From NCBI GenBank assembly GCA_964655125.1, contig CAZZLT010000018.1, forward strand, positions 4,126 through 28,125: DNA of 24,000 bases, given 5' to 3'. The stretch is from an uncultured Desulfurococcaceae archaeon. GTDB lineage: Archaea > Thermoproteota > Thermoprotei_A > Sulfolobales > NBVN01. A program made the translations under genes and the position numbers. Below are positions 1-11,848 of the stretch, one piece after another (position 1 is the stretch's first letter; each line of letters starts with the position of its first letter). Under the pieces are notes generated by a model, which was not told the origin of the DNA, made no database searches, and saw only the letters and a list, made by a program, of their open reading frames with translations.

Positions 1-391
1 ATGACTTGAATAGAGAGCTTATCTCTTTAACACTTAGAAACTCTGTCTCTAAATCGATATCCTCATCTCTTTTAATTTTATAGCTATCAGGTTGAATACC
101 ATGTGTTAAAGCCATTGACTTAAATTCTGGTGGAAGTTTATCTATTTGTTCATGTGTTATAGTAACTTCTATCTCATATGGCATAAAAGGACTGGTTTTC
201 GGAGTCCATAGCTTTTCACCAACATCGACTAACTGACCAATATCATTTGCCATCTCATCTATAGCTGCCCATCCACCTTCACTAAATAGAGCCCATACAG
301 CTGGAAACAATATCTTGTTTTCTCTAAACACTAATTCAGAAATCTCTCTAGCAATCTCCAATGCCCTATTAGCAATACTATTAATAGCCAT
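1..391 (-). CDS. 3' part of a split DUF438/hemerythrin/PAS-type sensor gene (last hemerythrin-like helix plus start of a PAS-like region); partial, runs off the window start
   Basis: My own translation of the minus strand from ATG 391..389 gives MAINSIANRALEIAREISELVFRENKILFPAVWALFSEGGWAAIDEMANDIGQLVDVGEKLWTPKTSPFMPYEIEVTITHEQIDKLPPEFKSMALTHGIQPDSYKIKRDEDIDLETEFLSVKEISSLFKS. The frame is open to position 1. It is absent from the track because no stop lies in the window. The ExxxLFP-type helix is typical of HHE hemerythrin domains. Confidence 0.55.
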   Translation of the reverse strand, partial: MAINSIANRALEIAREISELVFRENKILFPAVWALFSEGGWAAIDEMANDIGQLVDVGEKLWTPKTSPFMPYEIEVTITHEQIDKLPPEFKSMALTHGIQPDSYKIKRDEDIDLETEFLSVKEISSLFKS

Positions 392-974
392 TGATCAAAA
401 CGGCTAAAAGCTTAGATATAAACTCGCTAAGTTGTCTCATCTTGACTATAACCTGGTCTTCCCTACCCCACATAACCCTTGGAACAGCAACTATACCTCT
501 TCTCTCAAGATATGGAAATACAAGCATTTGAATTTTTCTATAGTGAAGTCTAAGTCTTCTTAGATTCTGAACTACAGCATTTAAAGCACCTAAAATGTTT
601 TTAGTTTCTTCAACTCCTCTAGACTGGGTTAATGCAGAGGCATAAAGAGCTAAGGCATCAGCTTGTTTCAATATCCATTCATTTTCTCTCATAAGAAAAC
701 CTATTGGATGTCCTTTTGGAACATCTCTTAGCTCTCTAGACTTTAGAAATTCTCTAAAAAGCTCTACATGAAGGTCACAAAGCTTTAGAATATCATCAAT
801 AGATGTACCCTCTCTAACAAGTTGCTGTTCTATAATCGGTATTTCAAAAGGTGAAATCTGTGATAATGTATCGCTAAATCTTCTCTTTATCTCCTCAACA
901 CTTTCACCTCTATGTATATTCTTTAACAGCTCTTTTACTATTCCAATCTTTTTATTCATATCCAAATTTGACAT
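381..974 (-). CDS. DUF438 N-terminal domain plus first three helices of a hemerythrin-like (HHE) cation-binding domain
   Basis: 197-aa track ORF. The N-terminal ~75 aa (..ISPFEIPIIEQQLVREGTSIDDILKLCDLHVELF) looks like DUF438. It is followed by GHPIGFLMRENEWI and LHYRKIQMLVFPYLERRGIVAVPRVMWGREDQV, which are hemerythrin-type helices. The ORF ends inside the domain. Confidence 0.7.
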   Translation of the reverse strand: MSNLDMNKKIGIVKELLKNIHRGESVEEIKRRFSDTLSQISPFEIPIIEQQLVREGTSIDDILKLCDLHVELFREFLKSRELRDVPKGHPIGFLMRENEWILKQADALALYASALTQSRGVEETKNILGALNAVVQNLRRLRLHYRKIQMLVFPYLERRGIVAVPRVMWGREDQVIVKMRQLSEFISKLLAVLINGY

Positions 975-1142: not shown

Positions 1143-1631
1143 ATGTATGATATAGTTACACATACAGATCTTGACGGTATTGTTGGTGCAGCTACCTATA
1201 TTTTAGGTATAAGGTATTAGAAAAATGAATATTATGTACTGTTTATAGAGCCTATAGAGATTGAAAAGATATGCGATCTTAGTAATAAAAGCTATGAAGC
1301 TATATCGATAATTGATATGGGTGTTAATGTTGATAGTTTAAAGGAGTTGCTGAGGTGTATAGAGGATAACAGTGTTGATGTATATTGGTATGATCATCAT
1401 ATATGGGATTTAGAATGGATTAATGAGTTGTCTAGATATGGTGTAAAGCTATATATAGATTCCAACTCGAAGTGTGCAGCTGATGTAGTTGCTAAGTCAA
1501 TGAATATAGAAAATAGATTGATTAGAGAATATGTTGATGTTATATGTGCTGTAGATTCTTGGAGTTTTTATAGATGGGAGGCACTCTATCTCTATCGATA
1601 TATAGACTATGTAAAGAGGTTCTATGATTAG
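1143..1631 (+). pseudogene. DHH-family phosphoesterase, disrupted (in-frame TAG at 1218-1220; apparently lacks the DHHA1 C-terminal domain)
   Basis: ATG 1143 gives MYDIVTHTDLDGIVGAATYILGIRY, then TAG. The same frame stays open into track ORF 1317..1631. DHH motifs appear in order: DxD (HTDLDG), D (IIDMG), DHH (WYDHHIW). The reading frame stops at 162 codons, just before the GC-rich island. Confidence 0.65.
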
Positions 1632-1651
1632 AGAGAGCATTTATAGATATT

Positions 1652-1909
1652 CTAGGATATGTTTAAGTGTATAGCTGTGTTGCCGCTCTCCACGATCTCT
1701 CTTATGGTAACTATGCGTGGAAGCAAATACTTGCTCACCTCTATCCAGAGGTGGAGACGCTGTAGGTGTCTATAGACGTAGTTCACAAACACAGGCCTCT
1801 CGATAAAGCTGTGCAAGCTGAAGGGAGGGTTGGGCTTTGCGTAGATTACGCCGCTCTCGTTCCACACCCTCCTCACCGCTTCGTACAGCTTGCTGGAGTT
1901 GACATTAAC
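1652..1909 (-). pseudogene. Downstream continuation of the island gene, separated from ORF 1910..2242 by a single in-frame TGA; the 3' end reads out into AT-rich flanking sequence
   Basis: Same frame as 1910..2242 (33 nt = 11 open codons lie between the TGA and the GTG of track ORF 1652..1876). Translation: VNVNSSKLYEAVRRVWNESGVIYAKPNPPFSLHSFIERPVFVNYVYRHLQRLHLWIEVSKYLLPRIVTIREIVESGNTAIHLNIS. No family recognised. Confidence 0.35.
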
Positions 1910-2242
1910 TCAGAACTCGAGGATCTCTCCCTCAGGGTCGCACACTATTCGAACCTCAGTCACCTCGCTAACGCCTAGCCCCTGAGAGAAGTACTTGCCG
2001 TGGTACTCGCTGAACTTGAGCTCGACACCGTTCACGTAAACAGTCCTCGGATAGCTCTTCGCCGGAGCTTCCTGCGTAGCTTCCTCTTCAGGTAGAGGAG
2101 ATGGGGCGCTGTACTCGGGCTCTACCAGCTCTAGAAGCTCCAGTGGTTCTAGAGGGTGAAGATTAGATACGTACAGCACTACCCCTACACCCACTAAGAT
2201 GGCTAGGGCTAAAGCACCTATCTTCAGGTTGGAGCTAGGCAT
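1910..2242 (-). CDS. Small N-terminally membrane-anchored or secreted hypothetical protein (foreign codon usage)
   Basis: 110-aa track ORF with a hydrophobic segment KIGALALAILVGVGVVLYV followed by an acidic, Pro-rich linker. On its own strand a GGGAG Shine-Dalgarno-like motif lies 5-9 nt upstream of the ATG, and TATA-like boxes (ttttaaat, ttttaagtt) lie 30-48 nt upstream. Confidence 0.5.
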   Translation of the reverse strand: MPSSNLKIGALALAILVGVGVVLYVSNLHPLEPLELLELVEPEYSAPSPLPEEEATQEAPAKSYPRTVYVNGVELKFSEYHGKYFSQGLGVSEVTEVRIVCDPEGEILEF

Positions 2243-2364
2243 AGATCTCCCTTCTATACAGGTATCTAAGAACTTAAAACAGATTTAAAAGCTTGCCACT
2301 TGCCAGGTTTCGTTCGCAGGGCAAACTCTTTATTTAGAGTATTATCAAGGCGCTTTACCGAGTT

Positions 2365-2397
2365 TCACGCTCTACGTTTCCCAGATGAAACGCGTGA
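2365..2397 (+). other. Interrupted stem-loop in the tRNA-half upstream region
   Basis: tcacg (2365-2369) pairs with cgtga (2393-2397), and cgtttc (2375-2380) pairs with gaaacg (2387-2392). The loop is ccagat, with a 5-nt bulge ctcta on the 5' side. That gives 11 bp in total. Confidence 0.4.
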
Positions 2398-2407
2398 CGG
2401 ACATAGG

Positions 2408-2463
2408 CAAGCTTTGAGAGCTGGTGGGCGTAGCCCACGCGGGTTCGAATCCCGCCCCCGGCG
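2408..2463 (+). tRNA. Orphan 3' portion of a class II tRNA, most likely tRNA-Ser; no 5' half in the window
   Basis: The T arm is gcggg-ttcgaat-cccgc (2439-2455). The acceptor 3' strand is ccccggc (2456-2462) with discriminator G (2463). A long variable-arm hairpin is formed by gtgggc-gta-gcccac (2424-2438). A possible anticodon arm is caagc/tttgaga/gctgg, with TGA at 2415-2417 and 4 of 5 stem pairs. The required 5' acceptor strand g[ct][ct]gggg occurs nowhere upstream. Confidence 0.6.
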
Positions 2464-2520
2464 TCTTAAACTATTATAGTGAACTCCTTGAAACGTTAGT
2501 TAGGGATACATTTCTAAAAA

Positions 2521-2552
2521 CTTATATATTCTCCGTAGTAAAGTTTTTAATG
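2521..2552 (+). promoter_or_regulatory. Candidate promoter region of the uS13 operon (two TATA-like boxes)
   Basis: cttatatat (2521-2529) lies about 45-50 nt upstream of ATG 2574, and gtttttaa (2543-2550) about 25 nt upstream. A GGTGGGG Shine-Dalgarno-like motif sits at 2562-2568. Which box is used cannot be decided from sequence alone. Confidence 0.35.
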
Positions 2553-2573
2553 CACTATATTGGTGGGGCTGTA

Positions 2574-3023
2574 ATGCCTGAAGCTATGTTTAAGCATATA
2601 GTTAGGGTGGCTGGTACTGATATAGATGGTAATCTTAGACTACCGTATGGTTTATTGAAGATTAAGGGTGTTGGTTATCAGTTAGCAATGCATGTGATTA
2701 GGGTGTTAGGGTTAGACCCTAATTTAAGGGTTGGTTATCTATCTGAGGGTGATGTTAAGAAGATAGAGGCTGTATTAGCTAATTTATTAAGTTATGGTAT
2801 CCCTTCATGGGCTTTAAATAGGAGGAAGGACTACATCACCGGTTTAGACTTACATTTAATAGGTGCTGATTTATTATATGCTGCTAGAGAGGATATTGAG
2901 AGGGAGAAGAGGATTAAGTCTTGGAGAGGTATTAGACATGCTTTAGGGCTTAAGGTTAGAGGCCAGAGGACTCATACAACCGGTAGGATAGGTCCTACAG
3001 TAGGTGTTAGTAAGAAGAAGTGA
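2574..3023 (+). CDS. rps13: 30S ribosomal protein S13 (uS13)
   Basis: MPEAMFKHIVRVAGTDIDGNLRLPYGLLKIKGVGYQLA.. is a typical archaeal uS13 N-terminus. The track ORF start at 2424 reads through the tRNA fragment and is not credible; ATG 2574 (or 2550) is in the same frame. Confidence 0.93.
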   Translation: MPEAMFKHIVRVAGTDIDGNLRLPYGLLKIKGVGYQLAMHVIRVLGLDPNLRVGYLSEGDVKKIEAVLANLLSYGIPSWALNRRKDYITGLDLHLIGADLLYAAREDIEREKRIKSWRGIRHALGLKVRGQRTHTTGRIGPTVGVSKKK

Positions 3024-3029
3024 TGTGTT

Positions 3030-3533
3030 ATGGGTGACCCTAAGAAATCTCGTAAGATTTGGGAGAGGCCTGGACATCCATGGATTAAGGAGAGATTAGT
3101 TAGGGAGATGGAGTTAATAGGTAAGTACGGTCTTAGGAATAAGAAGGAGTTATGGAAAGCTCAAACACTTCTTAGGGAGTTCAGGAGGAGGGCTAAGGCA
3201 CTACTATCACTTCCCCCAGAGTTAAGAGCTACTAGGGAGAGGGAGTTAGTTAGTAAGTTATACCGTCTAGGACTACTGAGTTCTGAGAATGCTGCTGTAG
3301 AGGATATCTTAGCATTAGATGTTGAGAGTGTTTTAGAGAGGAGGTTACAGACGATAGTGTTTAAGAAGGGGTTAGCATTAAGTATTCATCACGCTAGACA
3401 ATTAATAACTCATGGGCATATAGCTATCGGTATACGTAGAGTTACTTCACCTGGTTATTTAGTTAGTAGGGATGAGGAGAACTTAGTCGTGCCTGTTTCA
3501 TCAATTAAACAAAGTATTGTTAGGATTAGGTGA
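3030..3533 (+). CDS. rps4: 30S ribosomal protein S4 (uS4)
   Basis: 167 aa. [18 protein letters not shown].. and the C-terminal S4 RNA-binding domain ([13 protein letters not shown]) are characteristic. It occupies the conserved position after uS13. Confidence 0.95.
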
Positions 3534-3937
3534 TAGGATTGTTCTCAGTGAGGGAGATTAAGTGGGGTATAGCACATATATTCAGTTCATTCAATAATAC
3601 GATAATTACTATAACTGATTTAAGCGGTGCTGAAACATTCTCTAGAGCTTCTGGTGGTATGGCTGTTAAAGCTGATAGGGAGAAACCATCACCTTATACT
3701 GCAATGATGATAGCGTATAAAGTAGCTCAAGAAGCTATGGATAAAGGTATAGGTGCTATACATATTAAGGTTAGAGGTCCGGGTGAGCACGGACCTAAGA
3801 TACCGGGTCCAGGTGCTCAAGCAGCTATAAGAGCTCTAGCTAGGGCTGGATTTATAATTGGTAGGATAGAGGATGTAACCCCTATTCCTCACGATAGTAC
3901 TAGAAGACCTGGCGGTAGGCGTGGACGTAGAGTGTAG
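3530..3937 (+). CDS. rps11: 30S ribosomal protein S11 (uS11)
   Basis: [19 protein letters not shown] and the C-terminal [15 protein letters not shown] are uS11 hallmarks. The GTG start overlaps the rps4 stop. Confidence 0.95.
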
Positions 3938-3946
3938 GTGGATTTA

Positions 3947-4771
3947 ATGAGTTTAAACGTTAATGTTTTAGATAAGGGTAAGAACCATATAAAGTTATTA
4001 TTTGAAGGTGTCTCACTACCCCTACTTAACGCTGTTAGGAGGGTAGCATTAGCTGAGGTCCCTACAATGGCTGTTGATGAGGTAATATTCGTGGATAATA
4101 CATCAGCTCTGTATGATGAGATAATAGCTCATAGATTAGGTATGATACCACTAACCTCAGATGATGCGTTAGAGAAATATAAAATGCCGGAGGATTGTGC
4201 TGAGAGTACTGAGGTTGAGGGTTGTTACACAATCTTAACACTTGATGTATCAGCTAAGGATGAGGTATTAACAGTTTACTCACGTGATCTAATCTCGCAA
4301 GACCCTGACGTTAGACCGGTCTCACCAGATATACCTATAGCTGTGTTAGCACCTGGACAGAGATTAGCTTTTGAGGCTAGGGCTAGGTTAGGTAGAGGTA
4401 AAGAACATATAAAGTGGAGTCCATCTACTGTAGCTACAGTTACTTACTTAGCTAAAGTGAGTTTAAACAGTAGTAGATGTAATTTATGTGGTAAATGTAT
4501 TGAGGTCTGCCCTCGAGGTGTACTTAAGTTAGTGAGGGATGGTATTGAAGTTGATGAGGGTAAATGTATTTTATGTAGGCAGTGTGTTAAGGTATGTGAT
4601 CGTGATGCTATAGACTTAAGCTGGTATGAGGATAAGTACGTACTCTATATTGAGAGTAGTGGTGCGTTAAAACCTGAGAGGATATTATCAGAAGCTCTTA
4701 AAGTAATTATCAATAAACTTCAAATAATTTACAACGAACTTAACAAGTTAGGTAGTGTTGGGGGGAGTTAA
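3947..4771 (+). CDS. rpoD: DNA-directed RNA polymerase subunit D (Rpo3) with a ferredoxin-like Cys-cluster domain
   Basis: LLFEGVSLPLLNAVRRVALAEVPTMAVDEV and YDEIIAHRLGMIPL are conserved subunit D/Rpb3 motifs. CNLCGKCIEVCP and CILCRQCVKVCD form the Fe-S domain known from Sulfolobus RpoD. An alternative GTG start lies at 3938. Confidence 0.93.
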   Translation: MSLNVNVLDKGKNHIKLLFEGVSLPLLNAVRRVALAEVPTMAVDEVIFVDNTSALYDEIIAHRLGMIPLTSDDALEKYKMPEDCAESTEVEGCYTILTLDVSAKDEVLTVYSRDLISQDPDVRPVSPDIPIAVLAPGQRLAFEARARLGRGKEHIKWSPSTVATVTYLAKVSLNSSRCNLCGKCIEVCPRGVLKLVRDGIEVDEGKCILCRQCVKVCDRDAIDLSWYEDKYVLYIESSGALKPERILSEALKVIINKLQIIYNELNKLGSVGGS

Positions 4772-4772
4772 G

Positions 4773-5135
4773 ATGAGACGTACAGGGCCTACAAACATAA
4801 ACTTAAGACTACTGATTAAGGAGTTGAATAAGTACGCTAAGGATTACAACGCACCTATATGGAGTTACGTAGCTGAATTACTCTCTAGACCTGCTAGGAA
4901 ACGTGTAGTAGTTAACTTAAGTAAGTTGAATAGGTATGCTAATGATGGTGATGTTGTAGTAGTACCCGGTAAGGTGTTAGGAGGAGGTAGTCTTACTAAG
5001 AAAATCACATTAGCTACTGTATCAATATCACTACCAGCTCTAGAGAAGGTTAGGGGGTCAGGAAGTAGAGTAATTCATATTAAGGATTTAATCAGGGAAT
5101 TTCCTAAAGGTTCTGGTGTGAAGGTGGTAATATGA
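4773..5135 (+). CDS. rpl18e: 50S ribosomal protein L18e (eL18)
   Basis: MRRTGPTNINLRLLIKEL... is an eL18-type N-terminus. The gene holds the conserved position between rpoD and rpl13. The track start at 4755 is upstream in the same frame. Confidence 0.9.
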   Translation: MRRTGPTNINLRLLIKELNKYAKDYNAPIWSYVAELLSRPARKRVVVNLSKLNRYANDGDVVVVPGKVLGGGSLTKKITLATVSISLPALEKVRGSGSRVIHIKDLIREFPKGSGVKVVI

Positions 5136-5569
5136 GTAATAAGGTATTGGTGATAGATGCTGAAGGTGCTGTATTAGGTAGGTTAGCTACTATAGTAGCT
5201 AAGTCATTACTAGATGGGTATAAAGTCTACATAGTTAACGCTGAGAAAGCTGTTGTGAGTGGTAATCCTCAGATAGTTGTAGAATCGTATAAGATTTGGT
5301 TAGAGATAAAGACGTTAAGGAATCCGTATAAGTGGTCCCCGAAGAGGCCTAGGAACCCCGTAGCTATAGTTAAGAAGGCTGTTAAGGGTATGTTACCTAA
5401 GGATAGTTGGAGAGGTGTTGAAGCATTTAAGAATTTGAAGGTCTATATAGGCTTCCCGGAGGAGTTGAAGAAGTATAACGTTGTTAAAGTAGACTACACA
5501 TCTTCAAGACTTAGTAAAGGATTTATAACAGTTGGTGAGATAGCTAAAATGCTTGGGTGGAAGGGTTGA
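5132..5569 (+). CDS. rpl13: 50S ribosomal protein L13 (uL13)
   Basis: VIDAEGAVLGRLATIVAKSLLDG and AVKGMLPK are uL13 motifs. ATGA overlap with the rpl18e stop. Confidence 0.95.
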   Translation: MSNKVLVIDAEGAVLGRLATIVAKSLLDGYKVYIVNAEKAVVSGNPQIVVESYKIWLEIKTLRNPYKWSPKRPRNPVAIVKKAVKGMLPKDSWRGVEAFKNLKVYIGFPEELKKYNVVKVDYTSSRLSKGFITVGEIAKMLGWKG

Positions 5570-5988
5570 GTACACAGCAACAACAGTTGAAAGTTGTTTT
5601 AGCGTCGTGTAAGAGGAAGACAGCTATTGCTAGGGTAGTAGTTAAACCAGGTAAGGGTAGGGTATGGGTTAACGGTATACCTTTAGAGATATACCCGATA
5701 GAGATGGCTCGTTTAAAGATTATGGAGCCGTTACTACTAGCTGGTGAGTCTATTTGGAAGTCTGTTGATGTTAAGGTTAAAGTCTCTGGTGGTGGTTTTA
5801 TGGCTCAAGCAGATGCTGCTAGGACAGCTATTGCTAGGGCTTTAATACTTTATACAGGTAGTGAGGAGTTAAAACAACGTTTTAAGGAGTATAGTAGGGT
5901 GATGATTGCTGGAGACCCTAGACAGACAGAACCTGAGAAGTGGATGCGTTATAGTGCTAGGAGGTGGAGGCAGAAGTCCTACAGGTGA
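5557..5988 (+). CDS. rps9: 30S ribosomal protein S9 (uS9)
   Basis: GKRKTAIARVVVKPGKGRVWVNG and the C-terminal RRWRQKSYR are uS9 hallmarks. The start is uncertain (GTG 5557 or TTG 5566). Confidence 0.93.
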   Translation: MEGLSTQQQQLKVVLASCKRKTAIARVVVKPGKGRVWVNGIPLEIYPIEMARLKIMEPLLLAGESIWKSVDVKVKVSGGGFMAQADAARTAIARALILYTGSEELKQRFKEYSRVMIAGDPRQTEPEKWMRYSARRWRQKSYR

Positions 5989-5994
5989 TACTTA

Positions 5995-6198
5995 ATGGTT
6001 ATAATACCTGTTAGGTGTTTTACTTGCGGTGCTTTAATAGGTGATAAGTGGAGGGAATTTGCTGAGAGGGTTAGTAAGGGTGAGAACCCGGGTAGGGTAT
6101 TAGATGATTTAGGGATTACTAGGTATTGCTGTAGGAGGATGTTCCTCTCACATGTGGATTTAATAAATGAGATAATTATGTATTCTAGGAAGGTATGA
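5995..6198 (+). CDS. rpoN: DNA-directed RNA polymerase subunit N (Rpo10)
   Basis: 67 aa. [12 protein letters not shown]...YCCRRM is the Rpb10/RpoN zinc-bundle signature. Confidence 0.95.
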
Positions 6199-6860
6199 GT
6201 ATGTATCAGCCGTCTGAGGAGAAGAAGGAGTTTGAGAGAGCGTTAATTACTGAGAAGGGTGCTATAGAACTTCTAGTACCGTTAGATATCTACTTATCAG
6301 CAGGTGTTCATATAGGGACTCACATATGTACTAAGCATATGGAGGGATTCGTATATAGGTTAAGGTCTGACGGACTCTACATACTTAATGTAAAGTTAAT
6401 AGATGAGAGGATTAGAGTAGCTGCTAAGTTCTTATCGAGGTTTAACGTAGGGTCAGTCTTAGCTGTTTCAGCTAGGCAGTACGGGTTTAAACCTGTAGAG
6501 ATGTTTGCACGTCTTACTAATAACAGACATATCATCGGTAGGTTTATACCTGGGACTCTAACTAATCCTAGGTTATCATCTTATGTAGAGGCTGACGTAG
6601 TAGTTGTGACGGATCCTAGAGCTGATGCTCAGGCATTAGTTGAGGCTTCAGAGGTCGGTATCCCAGTAGTCGCTATAGCTAGTACTGATAATAGGTTATC
6701 AGGTGTTGATTTAGTCATACCGGGTAATAATAAGGGTAGGAAGTCTTTAGCAGTTATTTACTGGTTACTAACTAGGCAGGTTTTAAGAGAGAAGGGTATG
6801 ATATCACCTAATGGTGATCTACCGGTAGGTTATGAGGATTTCGAAACTAAGGTGAGTTAA
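6195..6860 (+). CDS. rps2: 30S ribosomal protein S2 (uS2)
   Basis: [33 protein letters not shown] and [11 protein letters not shown] are uS2 motifs. ATGA overlap with the rpoN stop. Confidence 0.95.
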
Positions 6861-7714
6861 TGAAGTTACTTAAGAGGTTACCAGCAGTTGCAGGTTATTT
6901 CTACGAATCTACATCTGATACACTCATTAAAAGGATTAAGTGGTGTTTTACTCATAGTTTAGGTCCTGGGAAACTACCTAGTATGTATGAGGGTAGATTG
7001 AAGGAAAGTATAGGTTATGTCGTACCACATGCTGGTTACATGTATAGTGGTCCAGTAGCAGCACATGTGTACTACAGAATTGCTTTGGAGGGTAAACCAG
7101 ATACATTCGTTATATTAGGTCCTAATCATACGGGTTTAGGTACTGCAGTCTCTATATACGATAAGGGTGTATGGTCAACACCTCTAGGTGATGTTGAGGT
7201 AGATTCAGAATTAGCTTTAGAGATCGTGAGGAGGTCTAATTACGTTGATGTGAATTACGACGCTCATAAATTCGAGCATTCTATAGAGGTTCAACTACCT
7301 TTCCTTCAGTACATCTTCGGTACTTTCAAGTTCGTACCGATAGTATTTGCTTATCAAGTACCTGAGATAGCTAAGGACTTAGCTAACTCCATAGCTAGTG
7401 CTTCTAAGGACTTAGGTAGGGATATAATAGTCTTAGCATCAAGTGATATGACTCACTACGAACCTGATGATAAAGCACGTAAGAAGGATCATGACGTACT
7501 CGAACATATAGTTAGGTTAGACCCTATGAAGGTGTTTGAAGTCGTAACTAAAGAGGATGTAAGTATGTGTGGTGTAGGGCCTGTGCTAACGTTACTTTAC
7601 TACGCTAATAAAGTCGGTGGTAGGAGGGGAGAGGTACTTATGTATGCGACTTCAGGGGATATCACTGGAGAGAAGGATGCTGTAGTTGGTTACGCAGCAG
7701 TTAGAATTCTTTAA
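6860..7714 (+). CDS. MEMO1-family protein (AmmeMemoRadiSam system protein B-like)
   Basis: 284 aa. PAVAGYFY, VVPHAGYMYSGPVAAHVY, ILGPNHTG, EHSIEVQLPFLQ and SSDMTHYE match the MEMO-family pattern. Its ATG overlaps the rps2 stop by 1 nt. Confidence 0.85.
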   Translation: MKLLKRLPAVAGYFYESTSDTLIKRIKWCFTHSLGPGKLPSMYEGRLKESIGYVVPHAGYMYSGPVAAHVYYRIALEGKPDTFVILGPNHTGLGTAVSIYDKGVWSTPLGDVEVDSELALEIVRRSNYVDVNYDAHKFEHSIEVQLPFLQYIFGTFKFVPIVFAYQVPEIAKDLANSIASASKDLGRDIIVLASSDMTHYEPDDKARKKDHDVLEHIVRLDPMKVFEVVTKEDVSMCGVGPVLTLLYYANKVGGRRGEVLMYATSGDITGEKDAVVGYAAVRIL

Positions 7715-7725
7715 CGGTCTCTTCA

Positions 7726-8526
7726 TTGTCTAGAGTTAATGAAGGTGTTAAATTAAGGTCTGTAGTGTATATACCGTTATTCTGTCTCCCACTCCCAAAG
7801 AAACATAACCCGGTAATAGTACTCCCTATAAAAGATTCTAAAATTACAGTAAGTGTTGAGGTATTAAGTAAGCAGGGCTTAGAATTATTAGGTGTTCCTC
7901 AAACAGTAGGTAGATATGTTTATGACTTCTACGAGTTCATACTTAATGAGTTAGGAGTTAATTACGGATTTAGGGTATGTGTTGATGGTGATTACATATA
8001 CGATGGATTCATATACGTAGCTATAACTAATTTAATGATTAAATTACTTAGCGGTAGGTTAAGTAGTGATGAGTATGGATTACTTAGGTTAGTGGATAGT
8101 AGGTTAGGTATTAACGACTGCATCACAGCACTTAGAGAGTATGAAGTAGTTGGTGGGCCTTACATATGGAGATATGATGGTGAGTTACTTAAGTTAACAG
8201 ATGTATCATGTTATGTTAGGGAGATGTTAAGTACTGAGGATATCTCCTTAAGTAGTGTAGTAGGTAATGAAGTACTCACTACACCGTTAACACGTCTAGT
8301 TGGGTTATTAATTATAAGCATATATAACTCATTAGTTGAGAAAGACTATAAATCCTTAAGCAACTATATAAGATTATATAATAGTTTATGGGTAGGTGTT
8401 AGTGGTATTGTTGATGGAATACTTCAAAGCTTTAAACCTACTACTGGTGTTAATTTCTTTACTTATGTTCAAGACTTAGGTAAGGTGACGTTATTTGAGG
8501 TACGATTGGTACTTAAAGGTAGTTAA
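7726..8526 (+). CDS. GHMP-kinase-like protein in the mevalonate kinase slot, with all three kinase motifs degenerate
   Basis: 266 aa. By eye it is collinear with archaeal mevalonate kinases, e.g. GFRVCVDGDYIYDGFIYVAITNLMIKLLSGRLSSDEYGLL against the ..P.G.GLGSSAA.. segment. It has no GLGSSAA-type P-loop, no N-terminal GEHAVV motif and no C-terminal Gly-rich motif. The start is uncertain (TTG 7726 or GTG 7762). Confidence 0.5.
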   Translation: MSRVNEGVKLRSVVYIPLFCLPLPKKHNPVIVLPIKDSKITVSVEVLSKQGLELLGVPQTVGRYVYDFYEFILNELGVNYGFRVCVDGDYIYDGFIYVAITNLMIKLLSGRLSSDEYGLLRLVDSRLGINDCITALREYEVVGGPYIWRYDGELLKLTDVSCYVREMLSTEDISLSSVVGNEVLTTPLTRLVGLLIISIYNSLVEKDYKSLSNYIRLYNSLWVGVSGIVDGILQSFKPTTGVNFFTYVQDLGKVTLFEVRLVLKGS

Positions 8527-9286
8527 GTTAGGTGGTAGTGTAATTACTTTTAAGGATACACCTATGACTATTAGATATGATGTAGTTAAGCAGTTAGTAT
8601 CTGAGTTAGCAGATGTTGTTAATGAATTACCGAGTCTGAAGTTAGTAATAATTCATGGTGGTGGTGGGTTTGGACACTACGTAGTACGTAAGTGTTTAAG
8701 TTCTATCGGTAGGATAGATAGTAAGTGTTTTTCAGAGACTTCATATGCTATGACATTACTGAACACATTATTAATTAAGGAGTTATTAGGAGTTAATTTA
8801 CCAGTAGTTTCAATACCACCGCATACAGTCTTTAAAGCTGAGGCTGATGGGAGGGTTAACTACGATAGAAACTTAATTATTGATTATTTAATGAGAGGGT
8901 TCATACCAGTACTATACGGTGATGTTGTCTTAGGGGTTAACTCATTCATAGTCCTCTCAGGTGATACTATAGCTTGGTTATTAGCTAAAGACTTAAACGC
9001 TCATGAGATTATATTCGTAACAGATGTTGATGGTTTATTCGATAAAGACCCTAAGAAGTATAGTGATGCGAGACTACTAAAGTATGTTAGAGCTGATGAG
9101 TTAAGGAACTTAGAGTTCTCTCAGGGTGAGTATGATGTTACTGGGTCTATGATGTTTAAACTTATGGAGGGGTTAAAACACGGTGTTAAAGGTATTGATG
9201 TTAAGATCGTGAATGGGTTAGTTAAGGGGAACTTATATAAGTCCTTACATGGTAATTCCTCTATAGGTACGGTGATTAAGTATTGA
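8495..9286 (+). CDS. ipk: Isopentenyl phosphate kinase (amino acid kinase family)
   Basis: VVKLGGSVITFK, IIHGGGGFGH, VLSGDTI and FVTDVDGLFDKDP are IPK/AAK motifs. It occupies the conserved position before fni. The TTG start overlaps the upstream gene by 32 nt. Confidence 0.88.
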   Translation: MRYDWYLKVVKLGGSVITFKDTPMTIRYDVVKQLVSELADVVNELPSLKLVIIHGGGGFGHYVVRKCLSSIGRIDSKCFSETSYAMTLLNTLLIKELLGVNLPVVSIPPHTVFKAEADGRVNYDRNLIIDYLMRGFIPVLYGDVVLGVNSFIVLSGDTIAWLLAKDLNAHEIIFVTDVDGLFDKDPKKYSDARLLKYVRADELRNLEFSQGEYDVTGSMMFKLMEGLKHGVKGIDVKIVNGLVKGNLYKSLHGNSSIGTVIKY

Positions 9287-10353
9287 GTTATGAAGGTATT
9301 AATAGGAAGTTAGAACATATAGAAATTGCTTTAAAAGAGGATGTAGAGGGTCCGTTAACAACATGGTTTGAATGTGTATATTTAATACATAGGGCAGCAC
9401 CGGAGTTAGACTTAGATGATGTTGATATATCTACTGAGTTTGTAGGTAGGAGGTTAAGAGCTCCTATAGTAATAAGTGGTATGACTGGAGGAGCTCCTGA
9501 GACTGAGAAGATAAATGCTGAGTTAGCTAAGGTGGCTGAGGTCTTAGGCTTAGGGTTAGGTGTAGGTAGTCAGAGGCAGGCGATTGAAAACGGATCTCTA
9601 AGGAGTACTTACTCTGTAGTAAGGGATTACGCACCAACTACGTTAGTATTAGCTAATATAGGTATATCCGAGTTCATAAGATATGATGTATCATTGATAG
9701 ATAAGATAGTTAGTATGGTTTCTGCTGATGCCTTAGCTGTACATTTAAACGTAGCGCAGGAGTTAGTACAGCCTGAGGGTTCACATAACTTTAAAGGTTT
9801 TCTCAGGAAGTTAGAGGTCATTATGAGGGAGTTATCAGTACCTATAGTTATTAAGGAGGTCGGCTTCGGTATCTCTAAGGAGGTTGCTGAGGAGTTAGTA
9901 GGTATTGGGGTAAGTCATTTCGATGTTGCTGGTGCTGGGGGTACTAACTGGGCTAAAATTGAGATGTTAAGAGCTAGGTATAAGGATGATAAGTTGAAGG
10001 AGAGGTTAGCTCGAGAGTTACTATGTTGGGGTGTCCCTACAGCTGCTTCAATACTTGAGGTTTGGACAGTAGCTCCGAATTCTGAAATAATAGCTAGTGG
10101 TGGTATTAGAAAAGCTTTAGATGTTGTTAAAGCTCTTAGACTAGGGGCTAACGCAGCTGGTTTAGCACTACCCTTACTCAGAGCTTACTACTCAGGTACG
10201 TTAATGGAGTACTTAGACGGGTTAATTAAATCAATTAAAGCTTTATTACTACTCACTGGTTCGAGGAGTATTAATGAGTTAAGGGGTAAACCAATTGTTA
10301 TTTACGACCCACTCAATACTTGGATAACTCAACGCGGTTTAAAAATACCTTAA
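9283..10353 (+). CDS. fni: Type 2 isopentenyl-diphosphate delta-isomerase (FMN-dependent)
   Basis: NRKLEHIEIAL, PIVISGMTGG, VGSQR, FDVAGAGGTNWA and ASGGIR are IDI-2 signatures. Confidence 0.92.
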   Translation: MSYEGINRKLEHIEIALKEDVEGPLTTWFECVYLIHRAAPELDLDDVDISTEFVGRRLRAPIVISGMTGGAPETEKINAELAKVAEVLGLGLGVGSQRQAIENGSLRSTYSVVRDYAPTTLVLANIGISEFIRYDVSLIDKIVSMVSADALAVHLNVAQELVQPEGSHNFKGFLRKLEVIMRELSVPIVIKEVGFGISKEVAEELVGIGVSHFDVAGAGGTNWAKIEMLRARYKDDKLKERLARELLCWGVPTAASILEVWTVAPNSEIIASGGIRKALDVVKALRLGANAAGLALPLLRAYYSGTLMEYLDGLIKSIKALLLLTGSRSINELRGKPIVIYDPLNTWITQRGLKIP

Positions 10354-10376
10354 TAATGTCTTATATAGGTGATTGA

Positions 10377-11375
10377 ATGAGTAGTGAATTACTTAAGTAT
10401 GCTGTTAAGGTGGCTGAGAAGGTTAATACATTATTAGGTGAGGTTGTTAGAGGTGATGAGAAACAACTGTATGACGCGTCATACTACCTCCTTAAAGCTG
10501 GTGGGAAGAGGTTAAGACCTCTACTCACGGTCCTCTCAGCTAGGTTATTCGGACTTAATGAGGATATCTCCATATATCCAGCAACTTCTGTAGAGTTATT
10601 ACATAACTTCACTTTAATTCATGACGATATAATGGATAGGGATGAGTTTAGGAGGGGTATCCCAACAGTTCATAAAGTTTACGGTGAGGCTATGGCTATA
10701 TTAGCTGGTGATCTACTCTTTGCTAAGTCTTTCGAGGTAATGTTTAGATTAGTTGGTATCATCCCTTACGAACGAGTTGTTAAGGCTTTGAGAGAACTTA
10801 CGTGGGCTGCAGTAACTGTTGCTGAGGGTCAAGCACTTGATATGGAGTTTGAAGGTAGGGATGATGTTAGTGTTGATGAGTACTTGAAGATGGTGTTTAA
10901 GAAGACAGCAGCTCTATTTAAAGCATCAGCTTATATAGGTGCGGTTGTAGCTGGTGCTGAGGAGAGTGATTTAGAGAGGATTAGTGAGTTCGCTAAGAGT
11001 ATCGGGATAGCATTTCAGATAAGAGATGATGAGTTAGGATTAATAGGTGATGAGAAGGTATTAGGTAAGCCGGTATTCAGTGATTTAAGGGAGGGTAAGA
11101 AGACTATATTAGTTATTTACGCGTTGGAGAGGGTTAATGATGAGCAACGTAAGTTAATACTTAACGTCCTCGGTAATAGAAATGCTAGTGTTGAGGAGTT
11201 TAGGAGGGTTGCTAATATCATAATTAAATCTGGTGCTCTAGATTACAGTAATAGAGTTGCTGAGGAGTACTTAAGGAAGGGTATGTCTAAACTTGAGGAG
11301 ATAAATACTAAGGATTTAGAGGCTAAGTACTTACTAAAGGAATTTGCTGAGTTCCTAACTAAGAGGTTGTATTAA
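10377..11375 (+). CDS. idsA: Geranylgeranyl diphosphate synthase (short-chain trans-prenyltransferase)
   Basis: GGKRLRP is present. The first Asp-rich motif is IHDDIMDRDEFRRG and the second is FQIRDDELG. KPVFSDLREGKKT resembles the Sulfolobus GGPPS as I recall it. Confidence 0.9.
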   Translation: MSSELLKYAVKVAEKVNTLLGEVVRGDEKQLYDASYYLLKAGGKRLRPLLTVLSARLFGLNEDISIYPATSVELLHNFTLIHDDIMDRDEFRRGIPTVHKVYGEAMAILAGDLLFAKSFEVMFRLVGIIPYERVVKALRELTWAAVTVAEGQALDMEFEGRDDVSVDEYLKMVFKKTAALFKASAYIGAVVAGAEESDLERISEFAKSIGIAFQIRDDELGLIGDEKVLGKPVFSDLREGKKTILVIYALERVNDEQRKLILNVLGNRNASVEEFRRVANIIIKSGALDYSNRVAEEYLRKGMSKLEEINTKDLEAKYLLKEFAEFLTKRLY

Positions 11376-11848
11376 TGGGTTTAACAGCTAAAGTAAGAGA
11401 ATACTTGAAAGACATCACTAACTACTATAAAGGTATTACATGTTATTTAGTTAGTACTACCTCTGTAGAGACTACAACAACAGTGGAGAACATCAACAGT
11501 TTTGAGAAGGTTGAATGTATTGATATAAAGAACTTCATTTCTGGAGGGTTATTAGAGAAGGAGTTAGTCATATGTAATGAGAGGATTAGTAAGTGTATAC
11601 TTGTCCTTAACGGTGCTAAGGTAGATGTTGTAGAGGTTAGAGGTTATGAAGTACTACTACATGTTGATGAAGCGTTAAGTGTTAAGGAAGGTGATGTGTT
11701 AGCTTATATAGTGACTAGTAAGGGTGAGTTAAGGAAGTTTAAATCTGTACGTAGTGGGTATGTAATCCTTATAGAGGAGGTAATCGATAAACCTCAAGGA
11801 TATATGATCTACTTAGCGGATGGTGAGTATGTCAGGGAAGTTAAGTAG
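11375..11848 (+). CDS. Conserved archaeal hypothetical protein with a C-terminal biotinyl/lipoyl-like hybrid-barrel segment (DUF2118-like, tentative)
   Basis: 157 aa. VKEGDVLAYIVTSKGELRKFKSVRSGYVILIEEV has the shape of a single hybrid motif but lacks the modifiable E-x-M-K lysine context. TAATG overlap with idsA and a 29-nt overlap with gltX. Confidence 0.5.
   Translation: MGLTAKVREYLKDITNYYKGITCYLVSTTSVETTTTVENINSFEKVECIDIKNFISGGLLEKELVICNERISKCILVLNGAKVDVVEVRGYEVLLHVDEALSVKEGDVLAYIVTSKGELRKFKSVRSGYVILIEEVIDKPQGYMIYLADGEYVREVK

What the first reader, a model, noticed from the sequence alone, without database searches (positions are those of the whole stretch)
1632..2466. GC-rich foreign island between a truncated host gene and the tRNA half
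Hand-counted lines inside the island are 52% and 58% GC, against 35% in the flanking ribosomal genes. Its ORFs use CTC/CTG/GAG/GCG/CCG/CGA codons that are almost absent from the other roughly 30 genes.

The left edge coincides with the premature end of the DHH gene. The island's own minus-strand reading frame runs out of GC-rich DNA into about 8 AT-rich codons before hitting a stop. Both observations look like a recombination junction. The right edge is the tRNA fragment.

Three neighbouring genes are damaged: a frame change at 381-391, a TAG at 1218 and a TGA at 1910. The following 21 kb of housekeeping genes are intact. I see no integrase, so this is at most a remnant. The origin is inference.
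Basis: partly seen in the sequence, partly recalled or inferred. Interest (0 to 1): 0.65.

Follow-up and report, generated by a model that had tools for sequence, protein, structure and literature searches.

The report
Decayed mobile-element end at tRNA-Ser
The GC-rich patch is the worn-down last 760 bases of a foreign mobile element sitting against the back half of a serine tRNA gene in an AT-rich hot-spring archaeon; this is an ordinary kind of event, but the element family has not been described.

Summary
The minus-strand frame 2242-1652 has 52% GC and 64% GC3. Twenty-four window genes average 38.7±2.3% GC and 32.9±4.5% GC3.

Contigs 99.94% identical from base 2411 onward lack the island. 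They carry an intact 84-nt tRNA-Ser(UGA) between cbf5 and the S13 gene. The window keeps only tRNA positions about 29-73 (2410-2463).

The island is 1651-2409. It has two parts:
- The first 196 codons of a roughly 620-760-codon gene for a membrane-anchored protein. TGA at 1910 is TGG in another assembly.
- A conserved, non-coding arm of about 105 nt (2307-2409).

The same arm abuts the same tRNA position of six tRNAs in other hot-spring contigs: Ser-UGA, Ser-GGA, Arg-GCG, Arg-UCU, Gly-UCC and Gly-CCC. In one of these it starts a GC-rich island of at least 11 kb, with a ParB-like gene, inside AT-rich host DNA.

The best reading is the distal end (attR side) of a tRNA-targeting integrative element, later truncated at 1650/1651 against a broken DHH-like gene.

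No integrase, and no element end carrying the regenerated intact tRNA, is present in any sequence I could reach. That half of the model is inferred. It is a new member of a known kind, of modest interest.

The parts
2..391 (-). Start (first 130 codons) of a PAS-type ORF that runs off the left edge of the window. Its ATG at 391 overlaps the end of the DUF438 ORF by 11 nt. It is AT-rich neighbouring DNA, not part of the island.
   Evidence: Translation. In L007 the same ORF is 246 aa with Pfam PAS_10.
381..974 (-). DUF438 + hemerythrin ORF of 197 aa. AT-rich neighbouring gene (GC3 24%).
   Evidence: Pfam DUF438 1.5e-24 and Hemerythrin 1.7e-6. GC3.
1143..1631 (+). DHH-like N-terminal fragment of 162 codons, with an in-frame TAG at 1218-1220 and a premature end. 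AT-rich. Its stop lies 20 nt from the island's left break.
   Evidence: Pfam DHH 6e-6, 27.0 bits against a 28.1 cut-off. Identical in L006 and L131, 98% in L007. No other homologue retrievable.
1651..2242 (-). GC-rich remnant: codons 1-196 of a roughly 620-760-codon element gene. It encodes an N-terminal membrane helix, a Pro/Glu linker and the first beta-rich domain. There is an in-frame TGA at 1910-1912 and the stop is TAG at 1652-1654. Homology to other copies ends between 1650 and 1651.
   Evidence: ORFs. Intact 196-aa version P0001 on L007. Full-length relatives P0003, P0006 and P0007 are 79-80% identical over residues 1-196. Break mapped. GC 52% and GC3 64%.
2243..2306 (.). Intergenic stretch between the element gene and the arm. 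It contains a conserved A/T box, CTTTAAAAG-like (2283-2291), which may be the promoter of the element gene (inference).
   Evidence: Conserved in the window, L008, L136, L138, L142, L143 and L147.
2307..2409 (+). Conserved non-coding element arm, the presumed P arm of attP. Its features are:
- an invariant block TCTTTAT-N4-AGTATTATCA (2327-2347);
- an invariant inverted repeat GTTTCA-N18-TGAAAC (2362-2391) with a variable spacer;
- further GTTTC copies at 2308 and 2376.

It ends in ...GGCA directly before the tRNA part.
   Evidence: Nine-sequence alignment A4. The stem never varies and shows no covariation. GTTTC/GAAAC is enriched, and substitutions are 364/353/288 by codon position in the frame of ORF 2300-2479, so the arm is not coding. 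The same arm sits in front of six tRNA identities.
2410..2463 (+). 3' part of tRNA-Ser(UGA), standard positions about 29-73. It comprises the last 2-3 nt of the 5' strand of the anticodon stem, the anticodon loop TTTGAGA, the long variable arm, the T arm, the 3' acceptor strand and the discriminator. The 5' part (GCCGGGG...) is absent from the window.
   Evidence: No tRNA found by ARAGORN or Rfam; only the T arm is detected. Alignment with the intact 84-nt gene of L001. GCCGGGG occurs only as the complement of the acceptor 3' strand.
2464..3023 (+). Native flank and the ribosomal protein S13 gene (2574-3023). From base 2411 the window is collinear with relatives that lack the island.
   Evidence: 99.94% identity to L001 over 2411-13533. 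Pfam Ribosomal_S13 3.4e-40.

Best explanation
Window 1651-2463 is the distal end (the attR side) of a GC-rich integrative element that targets tRNA genes.

**Proposed mechanism**
- The element family carries, at one end, an arm of about 105 nt followed by a copy of the 3' part of its target tRNA, from the anticodon stem to the 3' end.
- Recombination with the chromosomal tRNA-Ser(UGA) gene upstream of S13 leaves 'arm + tRNA 3' part + native flank' at this end.
- A regenerated intact tRNA, normally next to the integrase, would lie at the other end.
- Most of the element was then lost or rearranged. The element's first gene is cut after codon 196 at 1650/1651 and is fused to a broken DHH-like gene. 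In the window's strain it has also picked up a nonsense codon.

**Shown**
- Foreign composition.
- Absence from 99.94%-identical relatives that have an intact tRNA at this locus.
- Truncation of a known longer gene.
- A conserved non-coding arm joined at the same tRNA position to six different tRNAs.
- A long GC-rich island starting with the same module in AT-rich host DNA.

**Inferred**
- That a tyrosine-type integrase did it.
- That an intact tRNA-Ser(UGA) lies at the far end.
- That the arm is a protein-binding arm of attP.
For: **Composition.** GC is 52% against 38.7±2.3%, and GC3 is 64% against 32.9±4.5%.

**Empty site.** L001-L004 have cbf5, an intact tRNA-Ser(UGA) and S13, and are 99.6-99.94% identical to the window from base 2411.

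**Real junctions.** Both junctions are present in four assemblies.

**Truncated gene.** The ORF is the N-terminal quarter of a 620-760-aa family.

**Same arm at the same tRNA position in other contigs:**
- Ser-GGA (L007/L132).
- Arg-GCG (L135, L142).
- Gly-UCC (L138, which also has a truncated copy of the same gene).
- Arg-UCU (L143).
- Gly-CCC (L147/L148).

**Full-size island.** In L142, AT-rich host DNA (33-42% GC, with ribosomal protein genes, tRNA-Gln and galK) changes at the tRNA part into at least 10.9 kb of 51-59% GC DNA. That stretch holds the full gene, a 109-aa gene, a ParB_N-HTH_ParB-DUF488 protein and a TFIIB-like protein.

**The arm is non-coding and looks like a protein-binding region.** It has invariant GTTTC half-sites and an invariant inverted repeat with a variable spacer.

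**Fit with the literature.**
- The boundary in the anticodon stem fits the known use of the anticodon stem-loop as core and overlap region of tRNA-targeting integrases.
- It also fits the rule that the displaced tRNA fragment marks the distal island end (PMC8371274, PMC4383910).

**A likely intact allele in the same community.** L007 is a k=141 contig that ends exactly 139 nt after base 2410. That is what a branch to a second allele, identical from about 2410 rightwards, would produce. The second allele is probably an uninterrupted tRNA allele (plus arithmetic; inference).
Against: **No integrase found.** None was seen in the window, in L007 (6.7 kb), in the 10.9 kb of island in L142, or in L135, L136, L138, L143 and L146-L148. 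Pfam and PHROGs gave nothing.

**No far end found.** No intact-tRNA end and no circular attP form were found.

**Unknown to the reference collections.** Neither the gene nor the island DNA matches any deposited phage or plasmid, or any IMG/VR contig. 'Mobile element' therefore rests on context, not on a hallmark gene.

**No cbf5 on the left.** The DNA left of 1651 is AT-rich and is not cbf5 for at least 6.6 kb. A simple insertion is not enough: a deletion, a composite island or a rearrangement must be added.

**Extra differences in the tRNA part.** It differs from the L001 allele at four to five positions within 29-47. This needs either a different host allele or an element-derived stretch.
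Confidence: 0.75

Rival explanations
1. The element never integrated at this locus. The arrangement arose by homologous or integrase-mediated recombination between the tRNA-Ser(UGA) gene upstream of S13 and an 'arm + tRNA-Ser 3' part' remnant elsewhere in the chromosome. That would be an inversion or translocation at tRNA sequences which brought an old remnant and its AT-rich neighbours next to S13.
For: - The DNA left of the island is AT-rich, carries several broken genes and is not cbf5 for at least 6.6 kb.
- A second arm + tRNA-Ser(GGA) part lies 5.8 kb to the left in the same orientation.
- The window's tRNA part differs from the L001 allele only in positions 29-47 and is identical from the variable arm onward. 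That is the pattern expected from a crossover in the shared 3' stretch.
- tRNA genes are known breakpoints of such rearrangements in archaea (PMC8371274, PMC3218864).
Against: - The L007 contig end implies a second allele that shares the window's own variant sequence from about base 2410 (inference). If so, the 29-47 differences are a strain allele, not a crossover product.
- No reciprocal product is in hand.
Confidence: 0.15
2. The arm plus tRNA part is a working 3'-half gene of a trans-spliced (split) tRNA-Ser(UGA). The A/T box at 2329-2336 would be its promoter, 2357-2409 its leader, and a 5' half would be encoded elsewhere.
For: - A TATA-like box is invariant at a fixed distance upstream of the tRNA part.
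- The tRNA part is undamaged from position 29 to the discriminator in every copy.
- Split tRNAs are known in related hyperthermophilic Crenarchaeota and are thought to arise by rearrangement at tRNA genes (PMC3218864).
Against: - The same leader precedes six different tRNA identities. Known split tRNAs rely on a leader complementary to their own 5' half (my knowledge of the N. equitans and Caldivirga cases).
- No 5' tRNA fragment was found in the window or in 62 kb of related loci.
- By hand, the four bases before the junction (AGGC/CGAC + AA) cannot form the central helix of a bulge-helix-bulge motif with positions 24-27 (GGGC) of the L001-type 5' part.
- The arm shows no covariation.
- Relatives 99.94% identical have the uninterrupted gene.
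Confidence: 0.04
3. The junctions are assembly chimeras made at the conserved tRNA sequence.
For: - L005 is a mosaic contig that switches from 50% GC to AT-rich DNA inside the same tRNA gene. Chimeras or recombinants at this tRNA therefore exist in these data sets.
Against: - The same 1650/1651 and 2409/2410 junctions appear in four assemblies made with different assemblers and from different samples.
- L007 crosses the right junction with 141-mers.
Confidence: 0.03
4. The GC-rich gene is native and old, and its composition reflects selection rather than transfer.
For: - A 79%-identical copy (L008/L009) is also flanked by AT-rich DNA.
Against: - It is absent from 99.94%-identical relatives.
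- It is truncated and carries a nonsense codon.
- It occurs at different tRNA loci, and in both GC-rich and AT-rich contexts.
Confidence: 0.02

Closest known systems
Genomic islands and integrative elements in tRNA genes, in which a displaced tRNA 3' fragment marks the distal end (Williams 2002 sublocation classes; Islander database, PMC4383910)
   Same: - A foreign-composition segment abuts a partial tRNA gene that starts in the anticodon stem and runs to the 3' end.
- The segment is absent from close relatives, which have the intact tRNA.
- Related elements use different tRNAs.
- Remnants are decaying.
   Different: - No integrase and no regenerated tRNA end were seen.
- What is left here is only 760 nt.
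- The roughly 105-nt arm is conserved across elements that target six tRNAs, and always joins at the same tRNA position.
Archaeal integrated elements of the SSV type ('suicidal' integrase split into int(N)/int(C)) and the pNOB8 type ('gene capture'; She et al. 2001/2002; review PMC8371274)
   Same: - Crenarchaeal hosts.
- tRNA 3' parts as att sites.
- Trapped, degenerating elements.
- Families that switch among tRNA targets.
   Different: - The open frame that reads through the att site (2300-2479) is not a gene. It has a stop in the Ser-GGA copy, no start codon in L138, no third-position bias and no Phage_integr_3 match.
- It is therefore not the SSV type. A pNOB8-type (unsplit) integrase is possible but unseen.
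Split (trans-spliced) tRNA genes of Nanoarchaeum, Caldivirga, Staphylothermus, Aeropyrum and Thermosphaera (PMC3218864)
   Same: - A free-standing 3' tRNA part with an upstream A/T box, in a hyperthermophilic crenarchaeon.
- A recent origin relative to relatives that have the intact gene.
   Different: - The leader is shared by six tRNA identities instead of being specific.
- No 5' half was found.
- No bulge-helix-bulge motif could be drawn.
- The junction lies at about 28/29, inside the anticodon stem.

Membership tests
tRNA-targeting integrative element / genomic island (tyrosine-integrase type) | A displaced partial tRNA gene (3' part) directly at one end of the foreign segment | tested here: met
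   2410-2463 equals positions about 29-73 of the intact tRNA-Ser(UGA) of L001. The same is seen at five other tRNAs.
tRNA-targeting integrative element / genomic island (tyrosine-integrase type) | Close relatives have the uninterrupted tRNA and lack the segment (empty site) | tested here: met
   L001-L004 have cbf5, tRNA-Ser(UGA) and S13, and L001 is 99.94% identical from base 2411.
tRNA-targeting integrative element / genomic island (tyrosine-integrase type) | Composition or gene content foreign to the host | tested here: met
   GC3 is 64% against 33±4.5%. The L142 island of at least 10.9 kb has 51-59% GC in a 33-42% GC host and carries a ParB-like gene.
tRNA-targeting integrative element / genomic island (tyrosine-integrase type) | An integrase gene within the element | tested here: inconclusive
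   None was found by Pfam or PHROGs in any held sequence. No contig reaches the other end of an island, where the integrase is normally found.
tRNA-targeting integrative element / genomic island (tyrosine-integrase type) | A regenerated intact tRNA at the proximal end, forming a direct repeat with the displaced fragment | not testable with these tools
   The window and L007 do not reach it.
SSV-type ('suicidal') integrase element | The att site lies inside the integrase ORF, so an int(N) or int(C) fragment reads through the tRNA part (Pfam Phage_integr_3) | tested here: not met
   - ORF 2300-2479 has no Pfam match.
- It has a stop in the Ser-GGA copy and in L146.
- Differences by codon position are 364/353/288.
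Split (trans-spliced) tRNA gene | A leader specific to, and complementary with, the trailer of its own 5' half | tested here: not met
   One homologous leader precedes Ser-UGA, Ser-GGA, Arg-GCG, Arg-UCU, Gly-UCC and Gly-CCC parts.
Split (trans-spliced) tRNA gene | A separate 5'-half gene in the same genome | not testable with these tools
   None is present in the window or in 62 kb of related loci. The rest of the genome is not available.
Split (trans-spliced) tRNA gene | A bulge-helix-bulge motif at the leader/exon junction | tested here: not met
   Drawn by hand from the sequence. The leader bases -6 to -3 (AGGC in the window, CGAC in the Ser-GGA copy) do not pair with positions 24-27 (GGGC) of the L001-type 5' part. 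This is inference from the sequence, not a tool result.

The most novel reading that the evidence does not exclude
The conserved arm may be more than a recombination arm. Its invariant TATA-like box points at the tRNA part, which allows two readings:
- attP may sit between the element's integrase promoter and the integrase gene. Integration would then uncouple the two, giving a promoter-level version of the 'suicidal' integrase.
- The arm may drive a universal leader that lets displaced 3' tRNA parts be used in trans, so that element insertion creates split tRNAs.

Neither reading is excluded, because the other end of the element and all transcripts are unseen.
Probability: 0.07. Interest if true: 0.8.

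Novelty: new member of a known kind. Interest (0 to 1): 0.35.

Why it matters
It shows, within one hot-spring population (99.9% identical genomes), a tRNA gene with and without a foreign insertion.

It also defines the end module of an undescribed element family in uncultured hyperthermophilic Crenarchaeota. The module has three components:
- a roughly 105-nt arm with GTTTC repeats;
- a gene for a roughly 750-aa membrane-anchored protein with an invariant Cys/His/Asp;
- a 109-aa two-repeat protein.

The family has spread over at least six tRNA targets and across hosts of 37% and 50+% GC. That makes it useful for mapping gene flow between co-resident archaea and for annotating partial tRNA genes. 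It is not a new principle.

Tried and rejected
**Split-tRNA idea.** I followed it seriously after finding a second 'leader + tRNA-Ser(GGA) part'. I rejected it when the same leader turned up in front of Arg and Gly parts and no bulge-helix-bulge motif could be drawn.

**int(N) idea for ORF 2300-2479.** Rejected.

**RNA structure in the arm.** Single-sequence folds are not better than shuffles. The alignment fold gives only an invariant 6-bp stem without covariation.

**Searches that gave nothing useful:**
- The 14-mer scan of IMG/VR returned only chance hits (L011-L130 are noise).
- The genome-contig scan with the arm pattern returned two chance bacterial hits, so the host species could not be named.
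- IMG/VR, INPHARED phages and PLSDB plasmids gave no match to the gene, the island DNA or the tRNA parts.
- Two look-ups of S13 failed because the called protein differs.
- The DHH fragment has no retrievable homologue.

**Function of the element protein.**
- The structure prediction of the 196-aa remnant was poor (pLDDT 41).
- The full-length family model (pLDDT 63) has no significant PDB neighbour. The best is 3kd4, a putative protease, at E=0.066.
- No PDB sequence hit, no Pfam hit and no NCBIfam hit.
Full report
**The observation**

The window is AT-rich. Twenty-four ORFs average 38.7±2.3% GC and 32.9±4.5% GC3. Between about 1650 and 2250, 200-nt windows reach 51.5-55% GC. The minus-strand frame 2242-1652 has 52.1% GC and 64.1% GC3, well outside the range of every other ORF. 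The twelve richest 500-nt windows of the 24 kb all lie here. CTG, CTC and CGA are enriched several-fold, and TTA and AAA are depleted. GAG, however, is common in the other genes too.

ARAGORN and Rfam find no tRNA in the window. Only a T arm is detected, at 2438-2455.

The three damaged genes are real:
- TAG at 1218 in a 162-codon DHH-like fragment.
- TGA at 1910 in the GC-rich frame.
- An 11-nt overlap and frame change between a DUF438/hemerythrin ORF and a PAS-type ORF at 381-391.

**Relatives without the island**

The exact S4 protein of the window occurs on 22 metagenome contigs from Great Boiling Spring-type samples (sample background in PMC3612082).

In L001-L004 the S13 gene is preceded by the usual ribosomal cluster: secY, adk, L34e, cmk, L14e and cbf5. 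An intact 84-nt tRNA-Ser(UGA) sits between cbf5 and S13. L001 is 99.94% identical to the window over 11.1 kb, but only from window base 2411.

The window therefore retains the tRNA from about position 29 to the discriminator (2410-2463). This covers the anticodon loop TTTGAGA, the long variable arm, the T arm and the acceptor 3' strand. It lacks the 5' part, which is nowhere in the window.

Within positions 29-47 the window differs from the L001 allele at four to five positions. One is A29/U41 in place of G29/C41. From the variable arm onward the two are identical.

**The junctions are real**

L006 (JGI 3300000109), L131 (Ga0071330), L007 (ERZ27289263) and the window all carry both junctions at 99.5-99.9% identity.

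L007 is a k=141 contig that stops at window base 2549, which is 2410+139. That is the signature of a graph branch to a second allele that is identical from about 2410 rightwards. I read this as an uninterrupted tRNA allele in the same community. This is inference, with an uncertainty of about one nucleotide.

**What the GC-rich frame is**

L007 has the frame intact as P0001, 196 aa, with TGG where the window, L006 and L131 have TGA.

An exhaustive profile search shows that these 196 residues are the N-terminal quarter of a family of 620-760-aa proteins: P0003 to P0010. The family has an N-terminal membrane helix, a Pro/Glu-rich linker and several beta-rich domains. Cys326, His369 and Asp375/376 (P0003 numbering) are invariant, in a GGxCREF...GH..VTDDP context that looks transglutaminase-like to me.

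No Pfam, NCBIfam, PHROG, PDB-sequence or significant Foldseek match exists, so the function is unknown.

Homology of the window to other copies ends between 1650 and 1651, right at the stop codon. The last 'AT-rich' codons (NTAIHLNIS) still align with GEAIGVNIS of the full-length proteins, which continue RYTSAL....

**The stretch between the gene and the tRNA part**

Window 2306-2463 has a 78%-identical paralogue 5.8 kb further left on L007. There it is joined to a tRNA-Ser part with anticodon GGA.

A metagenome scan with a pattern from the conserved block found further copies. Contigs encoding the full-length proteins added more. In all, nine copies of an arm of about 105 nt are joined, at the same tRNA position (...CA | A/G-GC, positions 28/29), to 3' parts of six tRNAs:
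- Ser-UGA
- Ser-GGA
- Arg-GCG
- Arg-UCU
- Gly-UCC
- Gly-CCC

The arm is not coding. The open frame 2300-2479 that reads through the tRNA part has a stop in two copies and no start codon in L138. It has no Pfam match, and its substitutions fall 364/353/288 on codon positions 1/2/3.

The arm shows no RNA covariation.

What is invariant in the arm is:
- a TATA-like block TCTTTAT-N4-AGTATTATCA;
- an inverted repeat GTTTCA-N18-TGAAAC with a freely varying spacer;
- extra GTTTC copies, enriched over shuffles.

That pattern suits protein-binding DNA such as the arm of an attachment site. This is inference.

**The element**

In L142, AT-rich host DNA (33-42% GC, with the L3, S19 and L2 genes, tRNA-Gln, galK and a glycogen phosphorylase gene) changes at a tRNA-Arg(GCG) 3' part plus arm into at least 10.9 kb of 51-59% GC DNA. 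This stretch starts with the full 759-aa gene and a 109-aa gene. It continues with a ParB_N-HTH_ParB-DUF488 protein, a TFIIB-like protein and unknown ORFs until the contig ends.

Other contexts:
- L143 has the same 2.9-kb module (tRNA part, arm, big gene, 109-aa gene) in a GC-rich context and shares nothing else with L142.
- L135 sits at the same Arg-GCG site as L142 (97% identity through flank, tRNA part and arm) but has different genes behind the arm.
- L138 has the gene cut after 97 codons.
- The Ser-GGA copy on L007 has lost the big gene but keeps a homologue of the 109-aa gene.
- L147/L148 have a 101-nt tandem duplication in the gene.

This is the picture of a modular family of integrated elements in various states of decay. 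The window's 760 nt is one of the smallest remnants.

**Mechanism**

tRNA-targeting integrases commonly use the anticodon stem-loop as core and overlap region. The element carries the tRNA 3' part, so that the gene is regenerated at one end. The displaced fragment marks the other end (PMC8371274, PMC4383910). The window's structure matches that distal end exactly.

The recombinase itself, the intact-tRNA end and a free circular form are not shown. No integrase is present in any sequence I could reach. The element is unknown to INPHARED, PLSDB and IMG/VR.

Because the DNA left of 1651 is AT-rich and is not cbf5 for at least 6.6 kb, an extra event is needed. This could be an internal deletion in a composite island, or a rearrangement between tRNA-Ser sequences. 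I cannot tell which.

**Rivals**
- A functional split tRNA is unlikely. The leader is shared by six identities, no 5' half was found, no bulge-helix-bulge motif can be drawn, and the intact gene is present in 99.94%-identical relatives.
- An assembly chimera is unlikely, given four assemblies with the same junctions.
- A native origin is contradicted by the empty-site relatives.

**Verdict**

It is a new member of a known kind, a decayed tRNA-associated integrative element. Interest is moderate, mainly because the family is undescribed and the insertion is polymorphic within one population.

Noticed in passing
L007:5868-6026 (minus strand), about 5.8 kb left of the island in window orientation: A second copy of the arm, joined to a tRNA-Ser 3' part with anticodon GGA. 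It is in the same orientation and is preceded by a 92-aa ORF homologous to the element's 109-aa gene. The island in the window is therefore flanked on the left by another remnant of the same family. Only AT-rich, partly broken genes lie between the two.
   Followed up: partly
window 1904-1912: The nonsense codon is part of a cluster. The window, L006 and L131 read TGAGTTAAT where L007 reads TGGGTGGAC. That is four changes in 9 nt, all towards A/T.
   Followed up: partly
window 1650/1651 and L148:4329-4529: The window's truncation point (after ...ATATCCTAGA) lies within about 3 nt of the boundary of a 101-nt tandem duplication in another copy of the gene (...ATATCTAGGTA|TTCTGG). This may be a fragile or recombinogenic spot in the gene, or a coincidence.
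   Followed up: partly
L005 (ERZ27245612 k141_59567), 9350-13172: A mosaic contig.
- It is about 50% GC up to and into the tRNA-Ser(UGA) gene, with one D-loop difference.
- Then come 3.8 kb of AT-rich S13-S9 DNA, 97.7% identical to the window.
- Then it is GC-rich again.

It is either an assembly chimera at the tRNA or recombination between a GC-rich and an AT-rich lineage.
   Followed up: partly
L007:1 (window 2549): The k=141 contig ends exactly 139 nt after the first tRNA base (2410). This implies a second allele in that sample that shares the window's variant tRNA 3' part and the S13 flank but has different DNA upstream.
   Followed up: partly
window 381-391; also L007:2158-2168 and L010:924-934: The DUF438/hemerythrin ORF and the following PAS_10 ORF overlap by 11 nt in different frames in all three assemblies. 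I did not check whether this is a shared frameshift in a normally fused gene or a natural two-gene arrangement.
   Followed up: no
L007:4472-5565: MgtE_N (122 aa) and MgtE (125 aa) are called as two short separate ORFs, which suggests another broken gene in the AT-rich stretch between the two remnants.
   Followed up: no
L136:2533-2649 and L136:1515-1551: An arm copy followed by only the anticodon stem-loop of tRNA-Arg(GCG), then unrelated DNA. A T-arm/acceptor fragment lies about 1 kb away in the opposite orientation. This looks like a rearranged att site.
   Followed up: no
L145: about 6400-6480: A tRNA-Arg(CCG) 3' fragment that begins at the same tRNA position (...CAG|GCC) but has no arm in front of it. 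It lies 3.5 kb from a 41%-identical homologue of the element gene.
   Followed up: no
P0003 family (alignment A3): Cys326, His369 and Asp375/376 are invariant in a GGxCREF...GH..VTDDP...VDNGW context. This looks like a transglutaminase-like cysteine-protease core to me. No profile or fold search confirmed it; the best Foldseek hit, 3kd4, has E=0.066.
   Followed up: partly
L142:4370-4429: A C/D-box sRNA-like match (Rfam sR20, 27 bits, below the threshold of 44) lies directly next to tRNA-Gln in the AT-rich host part.
   Followed up: no
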